Of a DNA stretch of 64,000 nucleotides, positions 47,700-64,000 are shown piece after piece. The first letter of the stretch is position 1. Each line of letters begins with the position of its first letter. Both the position numbers and the translations under genes were made by a program. The DNA comes from Candidatus Aenigmatarchaeota archaeon. Lineage in GTDB: Archaea; Aenigmatarchaeota; Aenigmatarchaeia; CG10238-14; SCSR01. The notes below the pieces were generated by a model. That model was not told the origin of the DNA, ran no database searches, and saw nothing but the letters and a program-made list of their open reading frames with translations. The DNA is taken from positions 145,405-209,404 of the forward strand of contig JACRAE010000005.1 in assembly GCA_016213525.1 (NCBI GenBank), written 5' to 3'.

Positions 47700-50600
47700 C
47701 TAGCAGCCCCTCACGCTCACCAGCGCCACCGTCCCCTGCCTCCCCGTCTTCTCTATGCATATCCTGTGGCTCCCCTTGCCGAACTTGTCGGTCCCGTTCA
47801 GCGCTATCCTGCCGTACTGCAGTTCCATGTGCAGCATGCCGTCGCCAGATATCAAATACGATCCAAAGGGCCTCGTCGGGAGCCCCAGGCGCGTCACCGC
47901 CTCGCTCTGGTTCGCCACCACCGCGCAGGACGCCGCCGAGAACGGCACCACTGACCTGAGGGCGCCGAGTGATGTGATGTTGAATCTGTACTCGGACGCC
48001 GCCGCGTCGTTGCACAGCGAGACGAAGCTGCCCTCGTCGCCGGAGTAGACTATACCGGAGGACCTTGTCGAGGAGAGCTCGGACTGGTCGTACGAGCAGG
48101 CGTAAAGGTAGGAAGTGTTCTGCCTGGTGTAGCAGGCCGATGCGGGAGACGTCGAAGTCGATACCGTTCCTTCGCTGGTGCCGTTGATGAATATCATGCG
48201 CATGTCATAGTCCGCGCCCTCGAAGGTGTTGTTGTGGTCCGTGAGGTTGAACGCTGCCGACTGCACGCCTTCTGCCGAGGCGACCCTGTGCCACTTTCCC
48301 CCGACTGTCCTGTTCGCGCCGCCGAGGTAGAGCTGGTAGACTTCGTCTGGAGAGAGGGTTCTGTTTGTTATAATTACTTCGTCTATGGAACCGTTGAAAT
48401 AGCGGCTTTGGCCGAAGGTGTCAGACCCTATTCTGACACCCTGGGAATTTAGTTGCGTGTTCGCTCCCGAAAGCGCTGGACTAGCCACTAAAGTACCATT
48501 CACATAGAAGAATGATGTTGTTGTGTTATATGACCAAGTAACATGGGTCCATACATTATTTGGAATTATGTAATTTGCTGATACGTCATTGCTGTAAAAT
48601 CCCGCAGAAAGTCCACTTACGCCATTATAGTTGGCATAGAGCCATCTTGACTGATTTGTGTTAGTAGACCCATAGACTACAATCGGTCCGTCTCCACTTC
48701 CCCTATAATAAATCCATGCTGCTATTGTGTGGGGAGAATTACCGAGAGGTAGAGAGCTTGGATTTAAGTTGTTTACATAGTCATTTGTACCGTCGAAGAA
48801 CATACATCTCCCAAAATTATTTTTACAAGACGAGTTGGTCATCCATATTGCACCATTGATTACGCCGCCACCGTTCCCAAGTCCACTTGAGTCCGTTACG
48901 TTCAACGTCGAGTTGTCGTTGAACCTATAGTGCAGCACGGTACCAGCAGGAGTGACCGGCTGCAGCGTGGTGTTCGAGTCCTCCACGCCAAAGTACCTGT
49001 ACGTCTTTCCAGATGCGGCGGTGCCGAAGTCGTCGTAGTACCTCGTGACTTCGCGCTGGTAGTGCTCGCGGATCTCGGTGTCTGTGAGGGCGCGAGGATA
49101 CAATCTTACTTCATCAATCGTGCCGTTCCAACTTCTCTCGTTGAACGGGGTCTGTGCCCCTATCTTTGTCGAATAGGAACCGCCGGTACATATCGTTCCT
49201 ATGGTACCGCCACCACCGGATTGTATCCCATTGATGTATATCTGGGCTTTGTTTCCCTTATGAGTCACGGCCACGTGATACCATGTATTGAGTGACAATG
49301 CGTCCACACCATCGACATTAGTCCAACCACTACCCACAACATAAAACCACGCCCTCAGCACGCCTGTACTAGTCGTTGTATACAGACCGTACCCGCAATT
49401 GTCAGCTACAGTGTTCTTTGTAAAAATTGCCTTTAAGCCTTGGCCAGCAGTCGGTATCTGATTAGGATTTACCCAGGCTTCTATGGTCAGATCACCGGAT
49501 ATGTCAAAAATCGAGCTACTCGAAAGATTGACGTTATTGAATCCACCGTCGAAGCTCATGCAGCTGCCGAACTTGCATGATGAGTTTGAAATCCAGGTCG
49601 CGTTCACGGTACCCGTGTTCCCGTTCCCGCTCGAGTCAGTCGCGTTCAGGCCGGAGCCCTCGTCGAGGCGCCAGATTCCAGAAGCGCCGCCGTCATAGTT
49701 GAAGAGCAGCGAGGAATCGTGCTGCGTGACTCCGGACAGCGGGTTCGTCGAGTTCCAGGAGGCAGGATACCTAATGATTACGATTCCAGAGCCTCCTGTA
49801 CCACCAACGCCTCCGGCACCGCTTGCGAATGAAGCACCGCCGCCTCCACCGCCCGTGTTGGCGGTGCCGTCTGCTCCATTGTTGTTTCCGCCACCCGCGC
49901 CGGCATTACCGCCTCCTCCCGACCCGCCCGAACCGGACGTGCCACCCGTCCAAGTTCCACCGCCGCCTCCACCAGCCCTGTACACCAAGGTGCCGTTTAT
50001 GCTGCTCGCCAGTCCAGACCCTCCATTACCGCCTACCGTATTGCTTGGCGCCGTCTGGCCTACTGCACCAGCCCCGCCACCACCGCCATGGGGATAATTG
50101 CCGCCACATGCCGAGTATCCCGTGCCACCACTGTTTCCCTGGCCAGGCGTCCCCGCCACTGGAGACAGGGCACACGCGCTCCCTCCTCCCGAACCTCCAT
50201 GGGACCCGATGCCGGGCCCTCCCGAAGTGTCTCCTCCCCCTCCTCCCTTAGATTCAATGGTGTCGAAACTTGAGTTGGTCCCGTTCAAACCTTCGTTGAC
50301 ACTATCCACGCCTCCTCCCCCACCAGCCCCGATTACTATCGGATATGACCTGGAGGTTACTCTGTGGCCCGTTCCTGCCAAATAACCCCCGGCACCACCA
50401 CCGCCCCCGTATTTTCCACCACCACCTCCCCCTCCCGCTATCACAAGATATTCAACATTACCCGAGCCGCTAGTCACGTTGAACGTCCCGTTCGATGTGA
50501 ACGTGTGTATCTTGTAGCCGTCCGCGTACGTGACGTTGCCGCCCGTTGCTATTATTCCAGGAAGGTCGTACCACGTCAGCGTGCTGTTCGCCACGGACTC

Positions 50601-53600
50601 GATCAGCTCGCTCGAAAACTGCGTGGCGTTGTTCTGAGGGTTGAAGTTCGTCGTGTTCATCCTGCCCATCGTGCCTAGCGAGAACATGAAGTTCTGGTTC
50701 ATTGTGGAGTTGAACGTGTAGTTGAAGCCGAAGAAGTCGGTATGGTTGGAGAAAATGTTGAAGCCGGATTGTGTCGTGTTGGACAGAGTTCTGAAAACAT
50801 TTCTGACATTCGTCGTGGCGAACAACACCTCCTCGTTGTCCGTCGCGTTGTTCTTGGTGAAGTATATCCCGGGCTTCTGCTGGTTTATGCCTGTGTGATA
50901 CAGCTGAAGAATCTCCGAATGATTAAGGGCACGCCTATAGATTCGGGCCTCGTCAATATACCCATTGAATACTGTGTCACCAATGACTGCGTCTTTGGAC
51001 GACGAGACATCATAAACACTTCCAGACGCCGTCTTGTCAAGTGTGCCGTTGATATAGAGCCTCATATTGCCCCCTTCCCTTACCCCCACAACATGACTCC
51101 AGGATCTGACCGGTATCTTAGAATTAGATTGAATCTCAAGGTAACCGACGTTTTCAGTGACGAAATCGATAGTCCCGTCGGTGCCCAGAAGTCTCATGTA
51201 CCATTGCGCATTCCCCCCGCCCGGGTTTCTCTCTCCAACAAAAAATGATCCGGAAACCATGGCGCGGGGATTTACCCACACTTCGGCTGTGAAGTCGCTT
51301 GTTCCGAGATTCAAATTATTGTTGTCTGGCAAAAATACGATATCATCGCTCCCGTCGAAGCTCAGGCAGGAGCTGAACTTACAAGAAGAATTGCTGACAC
51401 GGGTAACTCCACCACTAAGATATCCAGGATTCCTCAGACCCGAAGAATCAGTGACATTCGTTCCAAATCCCTCGTTGAAGTTCCAGTACCCGACCAGTCC
51501 TGGCTCGGCTGTGGTGACGGACGTGCGGTTCTCGGGGAGGGAGAATGGGATGGATATGTTGCCGGGGCCGCCTGGGATCGTGGTGCCGTCCCAGAACTGC
51601 ACGTCGTCTATCCTAACCATATTGTCGTTCGACACAGCCTGATAGAAGAACTTGCCGAACAGGTATCTAAGGTCCGAGAAATACGACTTCGACGAAAGGG
51701 ACGTTGTGGCGGTCTCTTCTAGGTTGGAGTACTCGTCCGTGTAGATTTTCACGTCGACCTTCGGGTCTGACGCCGTGTAGACTAATTCCACCCACCTCGT
51801 CGCCGTGAGGGGCTCCGCTCTGCTAATTCCCGTCGCGTACTCGTTGGTGTTCGTCCAGGTGAAAGCATACATGTTAGAGGTCGATCCCGCGGCGTGCGCC
51901 GCCACCGCGAAGTGTATGGAATCGGCGGTCGCGGACGGATTCTCGCCGGAAAGCGAAGTGGAGTCTGTAAGGCCGAACCTCGCCATGACCGCTTGGCCGC
52001 TGGCGTCGTTTATGTAGTTGTTCAACACGACTTTGAACCTCATCACCCATCCGATGTTGTTGTCGGCGTAGTTTCCGGATCCCAAGACCCGTTGAAGATC
52101 ATAGGTCACCCAGTTATCGTCACCACTCTGGTTGTTGTTCATGTTCAGCGTTCCGTTCGTTATCGTCATCTTTCCAGAAGTCCCCGACCAGCTCGAGTTC
52201 GCCGAAAAGTCGTCCTTGAACTTAGTCCCGCCCTTCGAGTCGACGAATACCCTGACGAATGGGTCGTGAGCGGTCATAAGGAAACTTACGTTGACGCCGG
52301 GTTTGGTCATGTTCATGTTGGGATTGAACGCGTACCTCCACTTGAACTCCTGCTTGTTCCTAGGGTCGAGCCAGTCGGGCACCCCAGCCGCTTTATATCT
52401 TATAATAACGATACCCGAACCTCCCGCTCCGCCCGCATTTGCCGGGCTGCCAGCAGATGCCCTGGCTCCTCCACCGCCCGAACCGGTGTTCGCTGTTCCA
52501 GCCGTTGCAACTGCATTTCCTATAGATCCCGCCCCGCCCCCTCCCGAGCCCCCGGTGCCGGCAGCGACCGTAGCGCCTCCCCCACCTCCGCCAGCCCTAG
52601 TGACTGTAGAGCCGTTTATTCTGGACGATAGTCCAGCCCCTCCAGCACCGCCGGTGGTCCCCGAGTTGTTGCCGCCCGCACCTCCAGCTCCACCACCACC
52701 GCCTCCGACGTCTGCAGCAGAGCTCGACCCACCAATATTTCCCTGTCCAGAAGTTCCAGCCGCCCCGCCAAGTAGCTCCGCCCCACCGCCGCCCGAGCCT
52801 CCAGTTGACGCATTTGTAGTTAAAGCTCCACCGGCACCGCCTCCAGTTGCCATAACTGTTGAAAAAATAGAATTTGTACCATTACCTCCAACGTCGAGAT
52901 TTCCTCCAGCACCGCCGCTTCCGACCGTTATGTTATAGAGCTGTGCCGATACCGAGAGTTCTCCCTCCCTGTAGCCACCGGCACCGCCTCCTCCACCGAC
53001 CCATCCACCGCCGCCTCCACCTCCTGCTATAACAAGGTACTCCACTGTGCCGTTTCCAGACGTGACGTTAAACGTCCCATTTGAGGTGAAAGTGTGTATC
53101 GTATAGCCTTCCGCGTAAGTTATGTTGCCGCCAGTCGCCACTATTTTTTCAGATCCCTTTTTCCACAGAATCCAGCCCTGTTGATTCCAGTCGTAGAAAT
53201 AGACCGTCTTGTTCTGGGTGCCGGAGCCGTACAATGAAATCAAATTCTGGCCGTCGACTTTAATCGCGTCGTCGAAGCTCGCGTTGAAGATTATTTTATT
53301 AGACGAGTTGTACACGGTCATGTTCCTCTCCGTCATGCCGACGCGGATGAAGTCGTTCGATATGTTGACCACGCCGTAGAGCGAGCCGTTCTCGTCCATC
53401 CAGTAGCTGCCTCCAGGGCGGGAGTCGCGCAGCCCGAACTCGAACCCGTCCGAGCCGGCGAGGGTGTAGTTGACTGTGGTGTGGGTGGAGTTAGAGGTGT
53501 AGTTCCACGAGCCCTGCCCTATGCCAAGGAGCTCCCTCACGTCCCTCAGGCTGCCGTCGGACGCGTTGTAGAGGACCGAGGACGCGCCTCCTATTTGGAA

Positions 53601-54497
53601 GACGGACGTGCTGGAGTTGCGGGTGTAGTTTGTGTTGTCGATGATTGAAGTGTAGTTCACAGACCCGCCTGGAATAGAACCGCCCGAATATGTGAAGCTG
53701 GTCTCATTGCCTGCAATCCTTATCACGTCGCCAGTGCTGTTGGGGCCTATCCTGTAGCCGTACGTCAGGGTCGTCTGGTTGCGGGTCGTGTTCCTGACGT
53801 CGACGAGAAGGAAGTCCGACGAGGCCCGGAGCGTGTAGAGGACCTCGTACTCCGCTCCTTGAGAGGAGCGGACGTGGGCAAGCACGCCGGTGCTGGTCAG
53901 GCCGCCGCCCTCGAACGCGAGTTTGGTGTAGCCGGTGCCCCACGACGTGTCCGAGGTGCCGTTCAGGGTGATTCCGAAGTTCGTCGGGACTATCGTTGTT
54001 TGGGGCTCGGTCTTCGACCTCACCGTCTTGACGAGGGTGCTGGTGTTTATCGACGCGAAGCTGCCCTCAGTCCCCACTTTCAAAAAGACGACTTCCATCA
54101 GCTCGTTCTCTAATTTTAGATGGGTCGAGTTCTGGCTCGCGGAAGCGATGCCGGTTATGGTGGTGATGAGGTTGCCTTCCCTGTTGAACGTCCCCTTCGC
54201 CAGCGCCCCGGTCTTTATCGGGAGCTCGAAGCTGAAGGAGTTCGAGTCGGAGTCGACCCTGTAGACGCCGTCGTTCACGTTGATCTGGGCCACCCTCAGC
54301 GTGCCTGTGCCCTCCGCGGCCACCTGGCGCACGAGGTTGTCTATAATCTCCATGTTCTGGCCGGCCTCGCCTATTATGCCGGTCTCCCTCGCCTCGTCAA
54401 GAACGGGCAGGCCGATTCCGAGGACGACCCCTATGCCCACGAAGACGATGAGGGTCACGAGGACGAAGCTTATGAGTTCTGACGCTCCTTTGGGCAC
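47700..54497 (-). CDS. giant (2,265 aa) class-III-signal surface protein: pilin-like N-terminus + 2 Gly-rich modules + 3 LamG-like modules + Cys-terminated cap
   Basis: GTG start. (M)PKG|ASELISFVLVTLIVFVGIGVVLGIGLP. LamG signatures (W.F.EG.G...DSSG..N.G...W.SNSSCKF.SC.SFDG; W.HV...; LYINGT/IYING; IDE[AV]R[IL]Y.RAL...EI..[LH]Y) three times. TIHTFTSNGTFNVTSG.G.VEYLVIAGGGGGGG...GSGIVIIRY twice. Ends ..VSVRGC. Confidence 0.9.
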   Translation of the reverse strand: MPKGASELISFVLVTLIVFVGIGVVLGIGLPVLDEARETGIIGEAGQNMEIIDNLVRQVAAEGTGTLRVAQINVNDGVYRVDSDSNSFSFELPIKTGALAKGTFNREGNLITTITGIASASQNSTHLKLENELMEVVFLKVGTEGSFASINTSTLVKTVRSKTEPQTTIVPTNFGITLNGTSDTSWGTGYTKLAFEGGGLTSTGVLAHVRSSQGAEYEVLYTLRASSDFLLVDVRNTTRNQTTLTYGYRIGPNSTGDVIRIAGNETSFTYSGGSIPGGSVNYTSIIDNTNYTRNSSTSVFQIGGASSVLYNASDGSLRDVRELLGIGQGSWNYTSNSTHTTVNYTLAGSDGFEFGLRDSRPGGSYWMDENGSLYGVVNISNDFIRVGMTERNMTVYNSSNKIIFNASFDDAIKVDGQNLISLYGSGTQNKTVYFYDWNQQGWILWKKGSEKIVATGGNITYAEGYTIHTFTSNGTFNVTSGNGTVEYLVIAGGGGGGGWVGGGGGAGGYREGELSVSAQLYNITVGSGGAGGNLDVGGNGTNSIFSTVMATGGGAGGALTTNASTGGSGGGGAELLGGAAGTSGQGNIGGSSSAADVGGGGGGAGGAGGNNSGTTGGAGGAGLSSRINGSTVTRAGGGGGGATVAAGTGGSGGGGAGSIGNAVATAGTANTGSGGGGARASAGSPANAGGAGGSGIVIIRYKAAGVPDWLDPRNKQEFKWRYAFNPNMNMTKPGVNVSFLMTAHDPFVRVFVDSKGGTKFKDDFSANSSWSGTSGKMTITNGTLNMNNNQSGDDNWVTYDLQRVLGSGNYADNNIGWVMRFKVVLNNYINDASGQAVMARFGLTDSTSLSGENPSATADSIHFAVAAHAAGSTSNMYAFTWTNTNEYATGISRAEPLTATRWVELVYTASDPKVDVKIYTDEYSNLEETATTSLSSKSYFSDLRYLFGKFFYQAVSNDNMVRIDDVQFWDGTTIPGGPGNISIPFSLPENRTSVTTAEPGLVGYWNFNEGFGTNVTDSSGLRNPGYLSGGVTRVSNSSCKFSSCLSFDGSDDIVFLPDNNNLNLGTSDFTAEVWVNPRAMVSGSFFVGERNPGGGNAQWYMRLLGTDGTIDFVTENVGYLEIQSNSKIPVRSWSHVVGVREGGNMRLYINGTLDKTASGSVYDVSSSKDAVIGDTVFNGYIDEARIYRRALNHSEILQLYHTGINQQKPGIYFTKNNATDNEEVLFATTNVRNVFRTLSNTTQSGFNIFSNHTDFFGFNYTFNSTMNQNFMFSLGTMGRMNTTNFNPQNNATQFSSELIESVANSTLTWYDLPGIIATGGNVTYADGYKIHTFTSNGTFNVTSGSGNVEYLVIAGGGGGGGKYGGGGGAGGYLAGTGHRVTSRSYPIVIGAGGGGGVDSVNEGLNGTNSSFDTIESKGGGGGDTSGGPGIGSHGGSGGGSACALSPVAGTPGQGNSGGTGYSACGGNYPHGGGGGAGAVGQTAPSNTVGGNGGSGLASSINGTLVYRAGGGGGGTWTGGTSGSGGSGGGGNAGAGGGNNNGADGTANTGGGGGGASFASGAGGVGGTGGSGIVIIRYPASWNSTNPLSGVTQHDSSLLFNYDGGASGIWRLDEGSGLNATDSSGNGNTGTVNATWISNSSCKFGSCMSFDGGFNNVNLSSSSIFDISGDLTIEAWVNPNQIPTAGQGLKAIFTKNTVADNCGYGLYTTTSTGVLRAWFYVVGSGWTNVDGVDALSLNTWYHVAVTHKGNKAQIYINGIQSGGGGTIGTICTGGSYSTKIGAQTPFNERSWNGTIDEVRLYPRALTDTEIREHYQREVTRYYDDFGTAASGKTYRYFGVEDSNTTLQPVTPAGTVLHYRFNDNSTLNVTDSSGLGNGGGVINGAIWMTNSSCKNNFGRCMFFDGTNDYVNNLNPSSLPLGNSPHTIAAWIYYRGSGDGPIVVYGSTNTNQSRWLYANYNGVSGLSAGFYSNDVSANYIIPNNVWTHVTWSYNTTTSFFYVNGTLVASPALSGANTQLNSQGVRIGSDTFGQSRYFNGSIDEVIITNRTLSPDEVYQLYLGGANRTVGGKWHRVASAEGVQSAAFNLTDHNNTFEGADYDMRMIFINGTSEGTVSTSTSPASACYTRQNTSYLYACSYDQSELSSTRSSGIVYSGDEGSFVSLCNDAAASEYRFNITSLGALRSVVPFSAASCAVVANQSEAVTRLGLPTRPFGSYLISGDGMLHMELQYGRIALNGTDKFGKGSHRICIEKTGRQGTVALVSVRGC
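48900..49100. repeat. direct-repeat block shared by the two giant genes (copy 1)
   Basis: Aligns with 59537..59737 (offset 10,637). Includes an identical run of about 50 nt, gtgacttcgcgctggtagtgctcgcggatctcggtgtctgtgagggcgcg. Confidence 0.8.
53266..53580. repeat. direct-repeat block shared by the two giant genes (copy 1)
   Basis: Aligns with 63687..64000 at a constant offset of 10,421 nt. I estimate roughly 90% identity by eye. Confidence 0.8.
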
Positions 54498-54543: not shown

Positions 54544-54999
54544 TCAGCACGCGGTGGCGTTGACCGAGACGTGGGTGCCGTTCCAGCCGGCCTTTTCGAG
54601 GCAGACCCTCTGGAGCCCCTGTCCGAGCCGAAGGTCCCCAGAGACCGATATGTTGGAATAGGTCAGGTTGAGCCTGATTTTCCCGTTGACAATCAAGCTG
54701 CTGCCCTCGAGGAAGCCCTCCGGAGCCTCTGACCTGTATTCCACCCTCCCGTCGGCGATTCTGTAGCTCCCCCCGCTCACCTGCAAGGCGACCTCCCTCA
54801 CGCTTCCCTCTCCCCCCGATGCGGTGTCGCGGATTGCATTGTCCAAAATCAGCATGCTTCTTTGAGCATCGCCCAGCTCGGCTGACGCCCTTGAGTGATC
54901 GAGTGCAGGCAGACCGAACATCAAGACGGCGGAGACGCCGGCGACGCTGATCAAAACGACTATGACGGACGATATCATCGAGGACGTTCCCTTTCCCAT
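54544..54999 (-). CDS. type IV pilin-like protein; minimal scaffold homologous to the termini of the giant ORFs
   Basis: MGKG|TSSMISSVIVVLISVAGVSAVLMFGLPALD... aligns with the giant-1 N-terminus (GLPVLDEAR..MEIIDNLVRQVAAEGTGTLR). C-terminus RVCLEKAGWNGTHVSVNATAC aligns with both giant C-termini. Confidence 0.8.
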   Translation of the reverse strand: MGKGTSSMISSVIVVLISVAGVSAVLMFGLPALDHSRASAELGDAQRSMLILDNAIRDTASGGEGSVREVALQVSGGSYRIADGRVEYRSEAPEGFLEGSSLIVNGKIRLNLTYSNISVSGDLRLGQGLQRVCLEKAGWNGTHVSVNATAC

Positions 55000-56974: not shown

Positions 56975-59900
56975 TCAGCAGTTGGTGGCGTTGATCAGTA
57001 TCCTCGGCCCGTCCTGCCCTATCTTCTTGAAGCACGCCCTCTCCAGGCCCGGTCCCATCCTGAGGTCTCCCAATATCTTAATCCTGTCGTACTGCAGCAC
57101 CATCTGTAGGTTGGACGGCCCGCCCGCCAGATAGGAGCCGAACGATATCGCAGGGACGCCCTGGCTGAAGACGGTTCCCGTGCCATTGCCTATCGTGCCG
57201 CAGTCCCCGGTCGAGAACGGTATTATGGTCTTCAGCGGCCCGGCGGCGGTGAGGTTGAACTTGTACACCGCCCCCGTCTGGTTCCCGCCGACGCCCTCGA
57301 AGCATATCGAGGAGAAGTCCTGCGCCCTGCCGGCCCCGATTATGCCCGAAGCCTTGGCCTGGGAGAACTCGGAGTCGTCGTACGAGCAGGCGTACGGCCT
57401 GGTGACGTTCGTGATGTTGAAGCATCCCGGGCTCGGGGCGGCCGCCGAGATGGACGAATTCGAAGTCGAGCCGTTCACCGTCAGCGCGCGCATGTCGTAG
57501 TCCGCGCCCTCGAAGGTGCTGTTGTGGTCCGTCAGGTTGAACGAGACTGACTGTATCCCGTCGGCGGAGGCGACCCTATGGATGCGGCCGTATATCGACT
57601 CCGAGTCCTGCGTCTGGACGTACTCGTGCATCACCTCATCTGACGTGAGGGCGCGCTTCCAAACCTTGACGTTGTCCACCGTGCCGTTCAGGTATCCGTG
57701 GGTCGCGTCGTTGGGGCTGGACGACCTCGCCCCTATCGTGAATATGCCTGTGTCATCTTGTATCGTCCCGGAAAATGATGCAGATGAAACCCTGGTCCCG
57801 TTTACGTAGAGGGTGACGTTCTTGACGACGTCATCGACGACCAAAGTCGCATGTACCCATGTATCGAGAGGAAATATTGTTCCCGGACCGGAAGACACGG
57901 TTGTCTGGGTTGTGCTCCCATTATATATTATCCCTCTGATTGATGGAGTCGTCCCATCCCAGAAGAGCATGTACCCCTCGTAGTCCCCTGTCACGTCCTC
58001 CTTCCCGGCTATCCCTTGGTTGGCGTTGCCGGATATGTTCCCGAGCCTCTTCGTCCAGGCGGACACGGTCAGGCTCTTGTGGTTCAGGCTCGGGGAGTTC
58101 TCGACCTTCACGTAGTCGTCCATACCGTCGAACCTCAGCGCATTCCCCAGCTTGTCATCCGACCCATGGACTCCTCCCGTCAGGTTGCCGGTGTTACCGT
58201 TCCCGCTGGAATCCAGGGTGTAGTTGGAATAGATGAAAGTGGCGTTCGAGCTCCCCGCGTTGCTTCCGTCGTATATCCTCATGTTGTCTATGGTGGCGGT
58301 CAGCGTCCTCGATCCCGATCCTTCCTTTCCGTTTGCGTGCTGCAGGTACCTCAAGTTCTGTATCGTGGCAGGAACCGACCTGGTGACGGACCCGACCAGG
58401 GTGCTCCTCTGGGGATCGGAGAAGACGGACATTGCCATGGCGGTCGCGTTCAGCCTCTCCACGCGCATGTAGTATGTCGTACTGGAGCTCAGAGTGGTCC
58501 CAGTCACGATGGACGCGTCCGTCCCGTTGTCTATGTATTCCGGATGCATCCTGTTGCCGTCGGCCCCGTCGTATCCAAAGTTGACGCCGATTCCATCACC
58601 GCTCGCCGTGTCGTAGACATCCTGACTGTCGTTGGTAAGCCAGAACACCCTGTGGGACGGTATGTTGGACGCCGTCCACCTGAACTCGAAATTCGCCACC
58701 CATCTAGTGTTGCTGAGGTTCCGCCCCAGATCGTACCACACTCTGCTTTCGACGGCGTCCGCGCCGAAACCCGTCACCTGTCCGTTCGAGACCGCGACGC
58801 CGGACCCGACCTGCGTCCATCCCCCGGAAGAGGAGTAGTTGAAGCTGATGTCCGGGAGGTCCGCGTCGTTGAACTTCCACCATCCAACCAGGTCGCCGCC
58901 GTGCCTCTGGGCGCCGCCGAGGTAGAGCTGATAGACCTCGTCGGGGGACAGGCTCCTGTTCACTATGATTAAATCGTCAATCATCCCTCCTAGGAAGCCG
59001 GTGGACCGGGCCCTGCCCAGATCGAGGTTGTATGTCGGGCCCAAGGAGCTCGGATTGAAGCTGAGCTTGTCGTATGTCTCCATGTTGCCGCCGTCGAAGA
59101 ACACCCTGGCGTTGCCACGGGTCAGGTTGTTGTCGTATGTGACGGTGAGCATGTGCCATTTCTCATCGTCGGTTATCTTTCCGATTGACGTCACGTCGAG
59201 GAGTCCCTGCGCGCCGTTGCCGTTGGCTATTTCATAGTCTATCGTGCCGTCGGTGTTTGATTCCAGTCCTATTCCAACGTTCGCCCACGTGTCGTCTTTG
59301 TTGTCAAGTATGTAGTCCTTCGTCGCCCCTCTCTTCTTGAACCACGTGTTTATGGTGAACTTAGAGTTGCTCTTGTGCATCCATGCCCAGTTGCTGATGT
59401 TTCCCAGCTGGACATAGTCGTTAGAGTCGTCGAAGCTCATGCAGCCGCCGAAGCTGGCCATGCATGACGTATTTGAAATCCATGCCGCTCCATTTACAAC
59501 AGAGCCTGTAATATTGTTACCGGAAGCGTCCGTCGCGTTCAACGTCGAGTTGTCGTTGAACCTGTAGTGCAGCACCGTTCCCGCGGGCGTCACCGGCTGC
59601 AGCGTCGTGTTCGAGTCCTCCACGCCGAAGTAGCGGTAAGTCTTCCCGTAGGTGGCGGTGCCGAAATCGTCGTAGTATTTAGTGACTTCGCGCTGGTAGT
59701 GCTCGCGGATCTCGGTGTCTGTGAGGGCGCGGGGATAGATACGAACTTCGTCGAGATAGCCGTTGAAGAAGTTAGCAACTCCGCCTCTGGCGCCCATTAT
59801 CAAATTTGTCGGGTTCGGGTTTAAGGTGACAGACAATGCATACTGAGACTCCATAATACCATCGACATAAATTCGGCTAACGCTGCCGTCATATGTTCCT

Positions 59901-62900
59901 ACAACATGATGCCATATGTTGTCGTTGAACACCGTCCTAGTCTTCGGGGCGGCGTTTCCCTGCAGGGCAAAATATATCATATGGTCGTCTGACCCGGCGG
60001 TTCCGGCATGAGTAAGAGCGTAGCCGTTAGTGTTGTATCCTCCTTTGTCTATTATGCCGGCGTCAATTGACGGCGCTCCCGGACTCTTTATCCAGGCTTC
60101 CAAGGAGATCTTGTTATTGATGTTCAGGGACGTGCCGTTGCCGGCATTTATATAATCATTTGATCCATCGAAATAAATACAGCCGCCATATTTACAGGAA
60201 GAATTGCTAATCCAAGCAGGTCCGCTTAGAAGAGTTCCCGTGTTCCCGTTCCCGCTCGCGTCGGTCGCGTTCAGCCCGGAGCCCTCGTCGAAGCGCCAGA
60301 TTCCGGCAGCGCCGCCGTCGTACATGAAGAACGGTGTGGTAAAGGAAGTCGCTCCGTTAGTTTGGTTGACCGTGCCAAAGTTCGGATAGTTGTCTATAGT
60401 TGCGAGGTAGTCGGCGCGGATTTCGTCCTGTGATAACGCACGGGAATATGCCTTAAGGTTGTCTATCATGCCGTTGAAGAATACCGAGCCCCCAGATGTG
60501 GATCCTACTCTGAACTTACATGTCTGGTTGCAATTGATGTTGTTTATCGTGCCTACTATCGTGTCTGTGCTGGTGCTTTCTACCCCGTCTACGTACAGGC
60601 TCATGCTGTCTTTACCGTATCCGGTCGGAGTTCTCCTCGCCACACCAACCGCATGGTGCCAGTTTCCATCAGCGTAATTCGCAGACGTGTCTCTCTGGTG
60701 ATAATTAGAGTTGTCTCCGCCTTGGACAAGCCAGCTGACATGACCCCCAGAAGTAATTAGAAGCTGGTAGCCAGCGTTGTTGTCTATGTTCTTGCTGACT
60801 AGGGTTCCGGCCGAGGTCACGGTCGTCCTGAACCACACTTCCATGGTGAAGTCCTGTGTCATGTTGAGTGCGAGCGTGTTGTTGACCTCAATGTAGTCGT
60901 TCGAGCCGTCAAAGCTTATGCAGCTGCCGAAGTTGTTCTTACACGACGAGTTCGTTATCCATGTAGGACTGCTTGTGAGTGTGGCGGTGTTGTTGTTCCC
61001 GGTAGAGTCATAGGCCGTCGTACCCCCACCCTCATTGAACCTCCACCACCCGACGAGCGAGCCGTCGAACAAATCGTAGTAGGTCATCGTCGAGTTCGCG
61101 ATGGACTCGATTAGCTCGTTGGAGAAAACAGAATAATTATTTTGAGGGTTGAAGACAGTTGTGTTCATCCTGCCCATAGTGCCGAGGGCGAACATGAAGT
61201 TCTGATTCATGGTGGAGTTGAACGTGTAGTTGAAGCCAAAGAAGTTGGTGTGGTTGGAGAATATCTGGAAGTTGGAGGCGGTCCCGACGTTGCTGTTGGC
61301 GGATGTCCTGTTCACGTTCTTGAAATTCGTCGTCGCGAACAGGACCTCCTCGTTGTCCGTAGCGTTGTTCTTCGTGAAGTAGACGCCGGGCTTCTGCTGG
61401 TTGAGACCCGTTAGATATAATTGTCGAATCTCCGATGGACTCAATGCACGGTTGTATACTCGGGCCTCGTCCAGTTCTCCCCGTAAAGAGGCTGCTGCGT
61501 CGTGACGGACCGCGAAAAGTATGTAATTTCCGTTGCTAGTGAAGCTTCCAGTCCTTGAAGTGGCCGCTTCCTCTATTCCGTCCACATAGACCCTCATCGT
61601 GGTCCCATCGTACGTGCCTACAACATGATGCCACGCGTTATCGTTGAAAAGGGTGTTGGTTGTCACGCTCGATCCCAGCGCCCCAAAGTATATTTTGTGG
61701 TCCGATGCGCCCGCGGTTCCGGCGTGAGAAAACCCTATTTCGCTGTTTCCACTGTACATTATAACAGTATCTAGACTATTTGCTCCCGGAGACTTGACCC
61801 AAATAGAGTAAGACGCGCTGTTCCTTCCAGACAATTCAAAGTTAATCCCCGTACCGTTGATGTAGTCTCCGGAGCCGTCGAAGCTCACGCAGCCTCCAAA
61901 TTTACAAGATGAATTTGAAACCCAGCTAGTTCCGCCATAGAGCCTCTCTGTGTTACCATTGCCGCTGGAGTCTGTTATGTTCGTTCCCCTGCCCTCGTTG
62001 AAGTTCCAGTATCCGACCAGCCCGGGCTCGGCCGTAGTGACGGAGGTGCGGTTCTCGGGGAGGGAGAACGAGATGGTCGTATTGGAATAGGAGCTTACGT
62101 TGCTCGTGTCCTCGTAGAACTCAAGATCGTCCACGTTGCCGCTCATCCAACCAGCCTGGCTCTGGACCACGTTCAAGATTTTGATGTACCTGAGGTCCCT
62201 TACGGTGGAAGGGACCGCGACGGTCGACCTTCCGAGAACCGTTCTGTACTTGTCAGAGAATAGGGTGAAAGTGAATGCGGTCGAGTTCTCTCTCTTCAGT
62301 TCCCACCAGTATTCCGTGTTGTCGACGAACGTGTAGAATATCTCGCCCAGCTGGCTGCCTGGAAGTGTCGAGTCGTCCACGATGAACGACCTGTAGCTGC
62401 GGCCGCCATTCCTGTCTATATAGAGGAACAAGCCGTCCTGGGTGGAGCTGGCGGACGTGTTGGTGCTGGAAATGCCTATGACTATGCCGGCTCCGACGCC
62501 CGCGGAGCTGGTCAGGAGGCCCGTCCTGAACCTCATCGTCCAGATGTTCCCGACGTTCCTCCCATAGTCGAAGTACATGTTGTCGTTTGTGCCGTCGTTC
62601 AGGCCCATGAAGTAGGCGGACTCTGTGCTCTTGTTGACTCGTATCTTGTTAGAATCGGCCGGTATCCATATGGAGTCTGCCTGAGATTGGCTGGAGTAGG
62701 ACGAAAAATCTTCTCTCAGGTTGGCTAGACTGTCGCCCGAGTCCACAAATATCCTCACGAATGGGTCGTGTGCCGTCATCAGGTAGGTGTAGTTGACGAC
62801 CGGGCTCCCTGCCCTCGAGAAGGAATATCTCCACTTGAACGCCTGTTTGTTCCTCGAATCGAGCCAGTCAGGTACGTTGCTGTCTCGATACTCTGCCAAT

Positions 62901-64000
62901 ATCTCATCGGGTGTGAGCGCCTTGTGCCAGACCTTCACGCCGTCCATCAGACCGTTGAAATTGTAGTATCCAGACCCTTCATTGCCCAAAATAAACGCGC
63001 CTAGAGACCCGCTACCCTGCGGCAGCTTGCTCCATTGGGCAGTTGGGTTGTTACCAGAGGTGCTCTTCGCGGTCTGGACAAGGTTGCCGTCTATGTACAG
63101 CTGCCTGGTCGCGTTGTCCTTGTAGACGACTGCGAGGTGCGTCCAGCTGTTGATGGTGGGTGTGTAGACGAAGGACTCATCGTTCTGGTACGAGCCATAG
63201 TATATCGTCGTCACGCCGGAGCTGCTGAACATACGAAGGTGGTACCCACTGTTGTACGCGCCCCATTCCTTCTGCATGATGTACGACCAATCGTTGCTCG
63301 GGAGCGCCCTCGGTTTTATCCACACGCCGATTGTCAACGGGTTGCTGGTCGAGTCCAGACTAGCGGAGTCCGGGGCCTTCACGCTGTTGCCGACGCCATC
63401 GAAGCTCAGGCAATACCCATAATTCTCCCTACAGGAGGAGTTCGTTATCCGCGTCACGTTGGTTACCGTGGCGGTGTTCGCGTTCCCGCTCGAATCCGTC
63501 GCGTTCCCACTGATTTCGTTGAACTTCCACCACAAACCTAGGTTCTCTCCGGCCACGGTCTTTGAATCGCCGTATCCCTTCTGCCAGGGGACCCATTTTT
63601 GCCCACTCCAGTCGTAGAAATATACGGTCTTGTTCTGCGTTCCCGCCCCATAAGTCGATATCATGTCTTGCCTGTCGACCTTCACAGCGTCGTCGAAGCT
63701 CGCGTTGAAGATTATTTTATTAGACGAGTTGTACACGGTCATGTTCCTCTCCGTCATCCCGACGCGGATGAAGTCGTTCGATATGTTCACGATGCCGTAT
63801 AGGGAGCCGTTCTCGTCCAGCCAATAGCTGCCGCCGGGTCTGCTGTCCCGTACGCCGAACTCATACCCGTCCGAGCCGGCGAGGGTGTAGTTGACGGTCG
63901 TGTGGGTGGAGTTCGAGGTGTAGTTCCACGAGCCCTGGCCTATGCCGAGGAGCTCCCTCACGTCCCTCAGGCTGCCGTCGGACGCGTTGTAAAGGACCGA
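56975..64000 (-). CDS. giant surface protein, paralog 2 (partial: 5' end beyond the window; at least 2,341 aa here) with at least 6 LamG-like modules and Cys-terminated cap
   Basis: The frame stays open to nt 64000 (SVLYNASDGSLRDVRELLGIG...). The track's M at 63961 is an internal GTG. Colinear with giant-1 residues from about 306 onward. Six W.F.E..G...D.SGN.NT modules. Ends ..ILINATNC. Confidence 0.9.
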   Translation of the reverse strand, partial: SVLYNASDGSLRDVRELLGIGQGSWNYTSNSTHTTVNYTLAGSDGYEFGVRDSRPGGSYWLDENGSLYGIVNISNDFIRVGMTERNMTVYNSSNKIIFNASFDDAVKVDRQDMISTYGAGTQNKTVYFYDWSGQKWVPWQKGYGDSKTVAGENLGLWWKFNEISGNATDSSGNANTATVTNVTRITNSSCRENYGYCLSFDGVGNSVKAPDSASLDSTSNPLTIGVWIKPRALPSNDWSYIMQKEWGAYNSGYHLRMFSSSGVTTIYYGSYQNDESFVYTPTINSWTHLAVVYKDNATRQLYIDGNLVQTAKSTSGNNPTAQWSKLPQGSGSLGAFILGNEGSGYYNFNGLMDGVKVWHKALTPDEILAEYRDSNVPDWLDSRNKQAFKWRYSFSRAGSPVVNYTYLMTAHDPFVRIFVDSGDSLANLREDFSSYSSQSQADSIWIPADSNKIRVNKSTESAYFMGLNDGTNDNMYFDYGRNVGNIWTMRFRTGLLTSSAGVGAGIVIGISSTNTSASSTQDGLFLYIDRNGGRSYRSFIVDDSTLPGSQLGEIFYTFVDNTEYWWELKRENSTAFTFTLFSDKYRTVLGRSTVAVPSTVRDLRYIKILNVVQSQAGWMSGNVDDLEFYEDTSNVSSYSNTTISFSLPENRTSVTTAEPGLVGYWNFNEGRGTNITDSSGNGNTERLYGGTSWVSNSSCKFGGCVSFDGSGDYINGTGINFELSGRNSASYSIWVKSPGANSLDTVIMYSGNSEIGFSHAGTAGASDHKIYFGALGSSVTTNTLFNDNAWHHVVGTYDGTTMRVYVDGIEEAATSRTGSFTSNGNYILFAVRHDAAASLRGELDEARVYNRALSPSEIRQLYLTGLNQQKPGVYFTKNNATDNEEVLFATTNFKNVNRTSANSNVGTASNFQIFSNHTNFFGFNYTFNSTMNQNFMFALGTMGRMNTTVFNPQNNYSVFSNELIESIANSTMTYYDLFDGSLVGWWRFNEGGGTTAYDSTGNNNTATLTSSPTWITNSSCKNNFGSCISFDGSNDYIEVNNTLALNMTQDFTMEVWFRTTVTSAGTLVSKNIDNNAGYQLLITSGGHVSWLVQGGDNSNYHQRDTSANYADGNWHHAVGVARRTPTGYGKDSMSLYVDGVESTSTDTIVGTINNINCNQTCKFRVGSTSGGSVFFNGMIDNLKAYSRALSQDEIRADYLATIDNYPNFGTVNQTNGATSFTTPFFMYDGGAAGIWRFDEGSGLNATDASGNGNTGTLLSGPAWISNSSCKYGGCIYFDGSNDYINAGNGTSLNINNKISLEAWIKSPGAPSIDAGIIDKGGYNTNGYALTHAGTAGSDDHMIYFALQGNAAPKTRTVFNDNIWHHVVGTYDGSVSRIYVDGIMESQYALSVTLNPNPTNLIMGARGGVANFFNGYLDEVRIYPRALTDTEIREHYQREVTKYYDDFGTATYGKTYRYFGVEDSNTTLQPVTPAGTVLHYRFNDNSTLNATDASGNNITGSVVNGAAWISNTSCMASFGGCMSFDDSNDYVQLGNISNWAWMHKSNSKFTINTWFKKRGATKDYILDNKDDTWANVGIGLESNTDGTIDYEIANGNGAQGLLDVTSIGKITDDEKWHMLTVTYDNNLTRGNARVFFDGGNMETYDKLSFNPSSLGPTYNLDLGRARSTGFLGGMIDDLIIVNRSLSPDEVYQLYLGGAQRHGGDLVGWWKFNDADLPDISFNYSSSGGWTQVGSGVAVSNGQVTGFGADAVESRVWYDLGRNLSNTRWVANFEFRWTASNIPSHRVFWLTNDSQDVYDTASGDGIGVNFGYDGADGNRMHPEYIDNGTDASIVTGTTLSSSTTYYMRVERLNATAMAMSVFSDPQRSTLVGSVTRSVPATIQNLRYLQHANGKEGSGSRTLTATIDNMRIYDGSNAGSSNATFIYSNYTLDSSGNGNTGNLTGGVHGSDDKLGNALRFDGMDDYVKVENSPSLNHKSLTVSAWTKRLGNISGNANQGIAGKEDVTGDYEGYMLFWDGTTPSIRGIIYNGSTTQTTVSSGPGTIFPLDTWVHATLVVDDVVKNVTLYVNGTRVSSASFSGTIQDDTGIFTIGARSSSPNDATHGYLNGTVDNVKVWKRALTSDEVMHEYVQTQDSESIYGRIHRVASADGIQSVSFNLTDHNSTFEGADYDMRALTVNGSTSNSSISAAAPSPGCFNITNVTRPYACSYDDSEFSQAKASGIIGAGRAQDFSSICFEGVGGNQTGAVYKFNLTAAGPLKTIIPFSTGDCGTIGNGTGTVFSQGVPAISFGSYLAGGPSNLQMVLQYDRIKILGDLRMGPGLERACFKKIGQDGPRILINATNC
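59537..59737. repeat. direct-repeat block shared by the two giant genes (copy 2)
   Basis: Partner of 48900..49100. Confidence 0.8.
63687..64000. repeat. direct-repeat block shared by the two giant genes (copy 2)
   Basis: Partner of 53266..53580. The similarity runs to the window edge. Confidence 0.8.

What the first reader, a model, noticed from the sequence alone, without database searches (positions are those of the whole stretch)
49711..53145. Module swapping at fixed junctions: both Gly-rich modules of giant-1 are positionally replaced by LamG modules in giant-2
Seen:
- Site 1. Both proteins share the flanks ...NKTVYFYDW..Q.W..W.KG and VPDWLD[PS]RNKQ.FKWRY. Between them giant-1 carries a Gly-rich module (about 52384..53145) and giant-2 carries a LamG module (about 62879..63560, GENLGLWWKFNEISGNATDSSGNANT...).
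- Site 2. Between T[LM]T[WY]YDL and [FM][NY]YDGGA[SA]GIWR[LF]DEGSGLNATD, giant-1 carries the second Gly-rich module (about 49711..50575) and giant-2 carries a LamG module (about 60331..61075).

Inference: the loci behave like cassette slots, with discrete domains exchanged inside a conserved framework.
Basis: partly seen in the sequence, partly recalled or inferred. Interest (0 to 1): 0.6.

Follow-up and report, generated by a model that had tools for sequence, protein, structure and literature searches.

The report
Domain slots in giant archaeal pilin-adhesins
Two (in the genome, three) giant pilus-linked surface proteins of a tiny symbiotic archaeon share a conserved backbone with fixed insertion points that hold different whole binding domains, or none in relatives, so the cell has evolved new attachment proteins by swapping modules.

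Summary
In giant-1, two Gly_rich_2 modules sit between the same conserved flanks that hold two Laminin_G_3 modules in giant-2.

The slot reading holds and extends.
- A third paralogue on another contig carries Gly-rich in slot 1 and a third module type ("X") in slot 2.
- Among about 20 Aenigmatarchaeota relatives, slot 1 is empty in 14, LamG in 5 and Gly-rich in 2. Slot 2 is empty, LamG, Gly-rich or X.
- At least three further junctions behave the same way.

The proteins look like type IV pilin-like adhesins: they have a KG|A/T-S signal and sit at the end of a T2SSE/T2SSF operon. An AlphaFold model of moderate confidence places every slot in a loop of one all-beta framework.

Silent sites are saturated in the modules but not in the framework. 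Different framework pieces group the paralogues differently. This indicates old recombination between paralogues.

I found no sign of a programmed cassette system. There are no silent copies, no reverse transcriptase and no inverted repeats, and the flanks are only 72-90% identical.

Gly_rich_2 occurs in 1 of 61 genomes of the GTDB family and resembles phage tail-fibre tips, so it is probably the newcomer.

This is a new variant of modular pilins and domain-shuffled adhesins.

The parts
47700..54497 (-). giant-1 (G1), 2265 aa. Order: pilin-like N-domain, F1, Gly_rich_2, F2, X module, F3, LamG-A, F4, Gly_rich_2, F5, LamG-B, F6, LamG-C, F7, C-domain ending in Cys.
56975..64000 (-). giant-2 (G2). 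Its 5' end lies beyond the window; the full gene is G000:C3:202382-210373, about 2646 aa. It has the same framework with LamG in slots 1 and 2, plus an extra X module and LamG-D before the C-domain.
52386..53153 (-). G1 slot-1 occupant: Gly_rich_2 module (aa 449-704)
49767..50561 (-). G1 slot-2 occupant: Gly_rich_2 module (aa 1313-1577)
62876..63574 (-). G2 slot-1 occupant: Laminin_G_3 module
60389..61069 (-). G2 slot-2 occupant: Laminin_G_3 module
53154..53630 (-). G1 framework piece F1, the left flank of slot 1 (...NKTVYFYDWNQQGWILWKKG). The G2 counterpart is 63575..64000.
52233..52385 (-). G1 framework piece F2, the right flank of slot 1 (GVPDWLDPRNKQEFKWRY...LMTAHDPFVRVFVDS). The G2 counterpart is 62735..62875.
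51543..52232 (-). G1 X module. It has no Pfam match and belongs to its own family, which also occupies slot 2 of G3 and a third site in G2.
50562..50942 (-). G1 framework piece F4, the left flank of slot 2 (...ELIESVANSTLTWYDL). The G2 counterpart is 61070..61459.
49548..49766 (-). G1 framework piece F5, the right flank of slot 2 (linker, then FNYDGGASGIWRLDEGSGLNATD and the start of LamG-B). The G2 counterpart is 60167..60388.
54544..54999 (-). 151-aa pilin-like protein. It carries only the N-terminal and C-terminal parts of the giants' scaffold. It matches DUF7289 at 32.4 bits, above the 27-bit cut-off.

Best explanation
G1, G2 and a third paralogue G3 (contig C5) are members of an Aenigmatarchaeota (DPANN) family of giant surface proteins. 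Most members are mounted on an archaeal type IV pilin-like scaffold.

Between the scaffold's N- and C-terminal parts lies a conserved framework that is discontinuous in the sequence (pieces F1-F7). Its junctions are permissive loops or linkers that hold one whole autonomous binding domain or nothing. The occupants are LamG lectin-like domains, a phage-tail-fibre-like TNF/glycine-rich tip (Gly_rich_2), and an uncharacterised 'X' module.

Occupancy has changed repeatedly by insertion, deletion and replacement. The paralogues have also recombined with each other across the conserved framework DNA. The result is several adhesins with one chassis and different ligand-binding sets, presumably for attachment to host cells.

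Shown here: homology of the flanks; complete domains in the slots; many occupancy states across relatives; the pilus-operon context; mosaic histories.

Inferred: pilin processing and display; binding function; the framework folding as one beta-supersandwich; homologous recombination through framework blocks as the exchange mechanism.
For: Architecture and flanks.

Third paralogue: G3 has Gly-rich in slot 1 and an X module in slot 2.

Relatives and census. Slot 1 is empty in 14, LamG in 5 and Gly-rich in 2. Slot 2 is empty in 6, LamG in 6-7, Gly-rich in 2 and X in 1. Three more polymorphic junctions exist (inside F1, after F2, after F3).

Pilus context:
- The N-termini read KG|A/T-S followed by a hydrophobic helix, and there is a DUF7289 match.
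- G2 and its orthologue P0006 end a T2SSE - T2SSF - T2SSF - small-pilin operon.
- The genome encodes a prepilin peptidase.

Structure: an AF2 model of a member with all slots empty is all-beta (pLDDT 67, pTM 0.68). Every slot maps to a loop, and the slot-1 loop has pLDDT below 50. Foldseek matches the beta-supersandwich domains of GH94/GH65 enzymes and PL17/PL33 lyases.

Mosaic history:
- N- and C-domain trees pair G1 with the array-less 421-aa P6b and G2 with P0006 (99% and 95%). The framework tree gives ((G1,G2)99,G3)100 with P0006 outside.
- Fourfold sites at identical residues differ at 0.41-0.48 in the framework. In same-position modules they differ at 0.66-0.73, which is saturation (Fisher p 2e-4 to 5e-5).
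- F1 and F6 pair G1 with G2 (499 and 500 of 500 bootstraps), whereas F4 pairs G1 with G3 (453 of 500).

Gly module:
- It occurs in 1 of 61 genomes of the GTDB family, in 5 copies.
- The G1 slot-2 copy is sister to the G3 slot-1 copy (93%).
- It matches phrog_2295 at E 9e-59.
- Its model best matches the cyanophage Pam3 tail-fibre tip 7ypx (E 1.3e-4, TM 0.43-0.46). In Pam3 that tip is the proposed receptor-binding part (PMC9608196).
Against: No function has been tested.

Both structure models are only moderately confident, being built from 13-row and 5-row alignments. The Foldseek TM-scores for the framework are low (0.26-0.36), so 'one supersandwich with nested domains' is tentative.

G1's own DUF7289 match is below the Pfam cut-off (21.8 against 27 bits).

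G3 and several relatives carry the same array on a different, non-pilin N-terminus, so the array is not strictly a pilin feature.

The LamG tree does not resolve where G2's slot-1 module came from (support 10-44%). Replacement and independent insertion at slot 1 therefore cannot be told apart.

Chance-aligned residues in the divergent modules inflate their silent-site divergence somewhat. Selection on silent sites in the framework is not excluded.
Confidence: 0.75

Rival explanations
1. An active, programmed cassette or antigenic-variation system. The conserved framework blocks would serve as recombination sites through which modules are exchanged at high frequency within a population, as in Neisseria pilE/pilS or Mycoplasma MgPa.
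For: Conserved DNA blocks flank each slot, and homology stops at the module edge. Framework pieces have discordant histories. Exact runs of up to 71 nt occur between G1 and G2.
Against: - The flanks are only 72-90% identical at DNA level, and third positions differ at 0.28-0.60.
- All three copies are full-length genes with their own starts. No truncated silent donors were found.
- The contigs of the source run show one dominant arrangement at even depth.
- The region has no inverted repeats.
- The same module type sits in slots with unrelated flanks, which flank homology cannot explain.
Confidence: 0.07
2. Differential loss. The ancestor carried tandem modules (LamG plus Gly-rich, and so on) at each junction, and each paralogue simply lost different ones. 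No insertion or replacement ever occurred.
For: Deletion is easy, and many relatives have empty slots.
Against: - No member among about 20 has two modules in slot 1 or slot 2.
- Gly_rich_2 is absent from 60 of 61 genomes of the GTDB family, including both same-genus genomes. It cannot have been in the family's ancestor.
- G3 keeps the empty-slot linker NNTHG directly after its Gly module. That is what insertion into an empty loop would leave.
Confidence: 0.08
3. Assembly artefact. The MAG assembler joined reads of different paralogues or strains through the conserved framework repeats, creating false mosaics.
For: The genome is a metagenome bin with three paralogues sharing blocks that contain exact runs of up to 71 nt.
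Against: Contigs from a different assembler (k=31) run through each module and both of its junctions with 0-1 mismatches and even depth of 20-35. The same kinds of architecture recur in independent metagenomes from other studies.
Confidence: 0.03

Closest known systems
Modular type IV pilins of bacteria (Streptococcus sanguinis PilB with a vWA module and PilC with a ConA-like lectin module; GspK with a domain inserted in the pilin beta-sheet), PMC8179133 and PMC9934059
   Same: A pilin-type N-terminus carries grafted ligand-binding modules. PF13385 (Laminin_G_3) is among the commonest grafted modules. The genes lie in a type IV pilus locus, and the expected role is a tip adhesin.
   Different: These proteins are archaeal and match DUF7289 rather than the bacterial IPR012902 motif. 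They reach about 2650 aa with up to about 10 modules. The array sits inside the scaffold, before a C-terminal Cys-loop domain, rather than being appended. The modules hang on a conserved intermediate framework with fixed, polymorphic slots. No filament incorporation has been shown.
LamG-like protein expansions linked to type IV pili loci in DPANN archaea (Mia14 / 'ARMAN-2', PMC5498576)
   Same: A DPANN symbiont, LamG jelly-roll proteins next to type IV pilus genes, and a proposed role in host contact.
   Different: That work reports the expansion only. It does not describe a shared framework, slot polymorphism, Gly_rich_2 modules or recombination between paralogues.
Phage tail-fibre receptor-binding tips with a TNF-like plus glycine-rich domain (Pam3 gp24, PDB 7ypx; S16 gp38) and the ALK/LTK ligand-binding domain, PMC9608196
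   Same: The Gly_rich_2 module model best matches the Pam3 gp24 fibre tip and PHROG families. Like phage receptor-binding proteins, it behaves as a swappable specificity module.
   Different: Here it is embedded as an internal module of a cellular archaeal protein. The glycine-rich half of the model has low confidence. Trimerisation and any chaperone requirement are unknown.
Pilin antigenic variation by gene conversion (Neisseria pilE/pilS); comparison made from general knowledge
   Same: A pilus-associated protein with conserved segments flanking variable cassettes, and signs of gene conversion between copies.
   Different: There are no silent cassettes. Whole domains of 230-270 aa are exchanged rather than minicassettes. 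The flanks are 10-28% diverged, so the events are ancient rather than ongoing.

Membership tests
Laminin_G_3 (PF13385) | Profile match above the gathering score over the full domain | tested here: met
   G2 scores E 3.2e-135 with six stretches, and G1 scores E 7.1e-72 with three, matching profile positions 1-150 of 151. The slot-1 and slot-2 occupants of G2 match my own LamG HMM over positions 1-171 of 172.
Gly_rich_2 (PF21722) | Profile match above the gathering score over the full domain | tested here: met
   G1 scores E 8.8e-42 with two stretches over positions 1-225 of 226. A six-frame search gives 84.7 and 88.9 bits against a 24.3-bit cut-off.
Type IV pilin-like protein (archaeal; modular pilin) | Class III signal peptide: a short charged leader, a cleavage motif, then a hydrophobic helix of about 20 residues | tested here: inconclusive
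   The sequences read M(P)KG|ASEL..., MKG|ASAL... and MGKG|TSSM..., each followed by about 22 hydrophobic residues. DUF7289 passes the cut-off for the 151-aa protein (32.4 bits) but not for G1 (21.8 against 27). Cleavage has not been shown.
Type IV pilin-like protein (archaeal; modular pilin) | Encoded with the assembly ATPase and platform protein, with a prepilin peptidase in the genome | tested here: met
   T2SSE (E 2.8e-30) and two T2SSF proteins lie directly upstream of G2, with small pilin-like genes between them. The order is the same around P0006. Peptidase_A24 scores 41.7 bits at C3:111896-112234.
Type IV pilin-like protein (archaeal; modular pilin) | Incorporation into a filament and surface display | not testable with these tools
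   This needs microscopy or proteomics of the organism.
Programmed cassette / antigenic-variation locus | Silent partial donor copies and near-identical flanks that allow frequent conversion | tested here: not met
   The genome holds three full-length genes and no partial copies. The flanks are 72-90% identical and the longest exact run is 71 nt. The source run shows one arrangement.
Diversity-generating retroelement target | A reverse transcriptase and a template repeat near the variable gene | tested here: not met
   The genome has no RVT_1 match. The repeats in the locus are only the framework blocks.

The most novel reading that the evidence does not exclude
The conserved framework would be a dedicated domain-display hub. 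It would be one beta-supersandwich whose four or more surface loops each accept a whole binding domain. Its conserved DNA would act as homology anchors that let paralogous adhesin genes trade receptor-binding modules, including a tail-fibre tip captured from a virus. This would be a slow, germ-line cassette system by which ultrasmall symbiotic archaea retarget attachment to hosts.
Probability: 0.3. Interest if true: 0.75.

Novelty: new variant of a known kind. Interest (0 to 1): 0.5.

Why it matters
DPANN archaea depend on physical attachment to host cells, but the molecules that mediate and specify that contact are largely unknown. This family offers concrete candidates. These are pilus-operon adhesins whose binding modules (lectin-like LamG, phage-fibre-like glycine-rich tips, an unknown X fold) have been exchanged on a constant chassis.

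The family is also a clean natural example of domain insertion at fixed permissive sites. Empty, single-occupant and alternative-occupant states are all preserved in relatives, which is useful for studying how multidomain proteins evolve and for designing display scaffolds.

The apparent capture of a viral receptor-binding tip by a cellular adhesin is a testable link between virus and symbiont attachment strategies.

Tried and rejected
- A word-based protein search on framework piece F4 found only one relative outside the genome. The census therefore had to come from pattern scans of genome and metagenome contigs.
- A first alignment for folding, built from short framework fragments (A2), misplaced the F3/F4 fragments onto F1/F2. 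I discarded it and used A3, built from long contiguous stretches.
- tblastn of the Gly module against phage records gave nothing, probably because of low-complexity masking. A sequence search of the PDB also gave nothing. The phage link rests on the PHROG profiles and the fold match.
- Recent gene conversion was considered and rejected. There are no near-identical blocks, and the most similar framework pieces still differ at 14-15% of all positions and about 30% of third positions.
- DGR and invertible-element mechanisms were rejected.
- The LamG module tree was too poorly supported to decide the origin of G2's slot-1 LamG.
- The X modules and G1's F2-X region have no Pfam match.
Full report
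**Observation.** The window carries two giant minus-strand genes. Giant-1 (G1) is 47700..54497, 2265 aa. Giant-2 (G2) is 56975..>64000 and continues beyond the window; in the genome it is about 2646 aa. Pfam finds two full-length Gly_rich_2 domains and three Laminin_G_3 domains in G1. It finds six Laminin_G_3 domains and no Gly_rich_2 in G2. BLASTP aligns the regions on both sides of each Gly-rich module of G1 with the regions on both sides of a LamG module of G2 (E 8e-115, 3e-95, 4e-76). The 142 residues upstream of site 1 are 89% identical.

- G1 slot 1: 52386..53153
- G1 slot 2: 49767..50561
- G2 slot 1: 62876..63574
- G2 slot 2: 60389..61069

At DNA level, direct-repeat blocks of 76-87% identity flank both slots. 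The F1 block begins exactly at the module edge, 53153 in G1 and 63574 in G2. Contigs made by another assembler from the source run (a groundwater metagenome) pass through each module and both of its junctions at even depth. The arrangement is therefore not a chimera.

**A third paralogue and the framework.** The genome is 662 kb in 7 contigs. It holds a third giant, G3, at C5:58581-65741 (2379 aa). Self-built HMMs give these orders:
- G1: N-domain | F1 | Gly | F2 | X | F3 | LamG-A | F4 | Gly | F5 | LamG-B | F6 | LamG-C | F7 | C-domain
- G2: the same with LamG in both slots, plus an extra X and LamG-D before F7
- G3: Gly in slot 1 and, in slot 2, a module that is neither LamG nor Gly

An HMM of the X modules identifies the G3 slot-2 module as X-type (E 5.5e-33). 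It also finds the extra X in G2 (E 4.5e-28). Each of the three module families therefore occurs at several positions. In a three-way alignment the framework pieces are 70-92% identical. Modules at the same position are 19-40% identical.

**Relatives.** Record titles place the family in Candidatus Aenigmatarchaeota. I gathered about 20 family members from three sources:
- a protein search (P0006)
- genomes of the same GTDB family
- pattern scans of genome and metagenome contigs

Slot 1 lies between [FY][FY][FY]DW...W..W and [VM]PDW[LT]D. It is empty in 14 members, with a conserved ~10-residue linker ending N-[SA]-T-H-G. It holds LamG in 5 and Gly-rich in 2 (G1, G3).

Slot 2 lies between ANST[LM]T.YD[LMI] and .NYDGGA. 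It is empty in 6, LamG in 6-7, Gly-rich in 2 (G1 and metagenome contig L032) and X in 1 (G3).

Three further junctions are also polymorphic:
- Inside F1: LamG in two members, and a large DUF2341-like/repeat insert in one.
- After F2: X, LamG, an ALK-like glycine-rich domain, DUF2341-like, other jelly rolls, or nothing.
- After F3: LamG or nothing.

One member (first unit of the L023 ORF) has every slot between F1 and F4 empty. No member has two modules in slot 1 or slot 2.

**What the proteins are.** The N-termini read KG|A/T-S followed by a hydrophobic helix. A 151-aa neighbour (54544..54999) consists of only the giants' N- and C-terminal parts. It matches DUF7289 above the cut-off, and all these proteins end in Cys. 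From my own knowledge of archaeal pilus loci I take DUF7289 to mark pilin-like proteins.

G2 follows a T2SSE ATPase, two T2SSF platform genes and small pilin-like genes. P0006 sits in the same gene order in an independent JGI metagenome contig. A prepilin peptidase is present in the genome. This fits the 'modular pilin' concept established in bacteria, where PF13385 is a frequent grafted module (PMC8179133). It also fits the reported linkage of LamG proteins to type IV pilus loci in DPANN (PMC5498576). G3 and several relatives carry the same array on a different, non-pilin N-terminus.

**Structure.** AlphaFold2 on the bare framework (L023:7436-8509, 13-row alignment A3) gives an all-beta model with pLDDT 66.9 and pTM 0.68. 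All slot positions fall in predicted loops, and the slot-1 loop has pLDDT below 50. Foldseek hits cover 260-330 of 358 residues on the beta-supersandwich domains of GH94/GH65 phosphorylases and PL17/PL33 lyases (E 6e-6 to 1e-3). TM-scores are only 0.26-0.36. Reading the slots as loops of one large sandwich, that is nested domain insertion, is therefore plausible but tentative.

The Gly module matches phrog_2295 (E 9e-59) and a tail-category PHROG. Its model has a confident N-terminal ~110-residue sandwich and a low-confidence glycine-rich half. It best matches the cyanophage Pam3 tail-fibre protein (7ypx, E 1.3e-4, TM 0.43-0.46), then a Bxb1 tail-tip protein, then weakly LTK/ALK. In Pam3 this TNF-like plus glycine-rich tip is the proposed receptor-binding part (PMC9608196).

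**History.** Gly_rich_2 is present in only 1 of 61 genomes of the GTDB family, this one, in 5 copies. The copies are 57-63% identical. The G1 slot-2 copy is sister to the G3 slot-1 copy (93%), so a module has moved between slots with unrelated flanks. G3 keeps the empty-slot linker NNTHG right after its Gly module, as expected for insertion into an empty loop. LamG modules at positions B and C cluster by position across genera and form a stable core. Slot-1 LamGs of three relatives also cluster (97%). G2's slot-1 LamG is unresolved.

N- and C-domain trees pair G1 with a 421-aa, array-less protein that occupies G1's syntenic position beside P0006. They pair G2 with P0006 (99% and 95%). The framework tree instead gives ((G1,G2)99,G3)100 with P0006 outside. 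The central array and the scaffold ends therefore have different histories.

Fourfold-degenerate sites at identical residues differ at 0.41-0.48 in the framework. In same-position modules they differ at 0.66-0.73, which equals the random expectation (Fisher p 2e-4, 5e-5, 4e-4). Chance-aligned residues could explain only part of this gap. F1 and F6 pair G1 with G2 (499 and 500 of 500 bootstraps), but F4 pairs G1 with G3 (453 of 500). Together these results indicate recombination among the paralogues with breakpoints across the slots.

The events are old. The most similar framework blocks still differ at 14-15% of positions, the longest exact run is 71 nt, and there are no near-identical blocks.

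**Mechanisms excluded.** The genome has no reverse transcriptase. The locus has no inverted repeats. There are no silent partial copies. The source run shows one dominant arrangement. I found no support for a programmed cassette system.

**Verdict.** The 'slots in a conserved framework' reading is supported and broadened. Two corrections apply. The glycine-rich modules are probably the newcomers. At slot 1 the two states may be separate insertions into an empty loop rather than a replacement. The case is a new variant of known things (modular pilins, domain-shuffled adhesins, swappable phage receptor-binding tips), with an unusually clear set of intermediate states.

Noticed in passing
window 51545..52331: One Logan contig of the source run joins 51545 to 52331, skipping 785 nt that correspond to the G1 X module (aa 723-985). 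The skip is not a multiple of three, and the shorter side is only 30 nt. The two positions share no k-mers within G1. It may be a graph artefact at the 35-nt exact repeat shared with G3, or a minor variant.
   Followed up: partly
G000:C2:97136-124363 (outside the window): An open frame of 9076 aa, by far the largest in this 662-kb genome. I did not examine it.
   Followed up: no
L023:6734-11944 (CAZYHQ010000002.1): One ORF holds two complete framework units in tandem. The second is preceded by a repeat of the non-pilin N-terminal region. The ORF is either a fusion of two giants or an internal duplication of the whole array. Its first unit has every slot between F1 and F4 empty.
   Followed up: partly
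G000:C5:58581-65741 (G3); also L031, L036, L021: The same framework array is mounted on a different N-terminus: a signal-anchor helix plus a Cys-containing region (HGGNGS.GY...C.G..CNFT). In G3 the C-terminus is also different (Big_13-like, no terminal Cys). The array itself therefore behaves as a transferable unit between anchor types.
   Followed up: partly
L029:16621-17886 and window 54544..54999; L017:13790-15685: The scaffold exists in a graded series of sizes: 151 aa (ends only), 421 aa (full N- and C-domains, no array), 632 aa (one LamG), 1572 aa, and then 2000-2650 aa.
   Followed up: partly
L032:3-2858 (Ga0207952_1006344): A close relative of G1-G3 (framework 77-90% identical) has Gly_rich_2 in slot 2. 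A second Gly_rich_2 ends about 24 residues before the last F1 strand, which is a further insertion position. The contig is cut at both ends.
   Followed up: partly
window 33328..36474 and G000:C4:41865-45695: Two other secreted proteins (1048 and 1274 aa) start with a Gly_rich_2 module directly after the signal sequence. These make up the remaining two of the five copies in the genome.
   Followed up: partly
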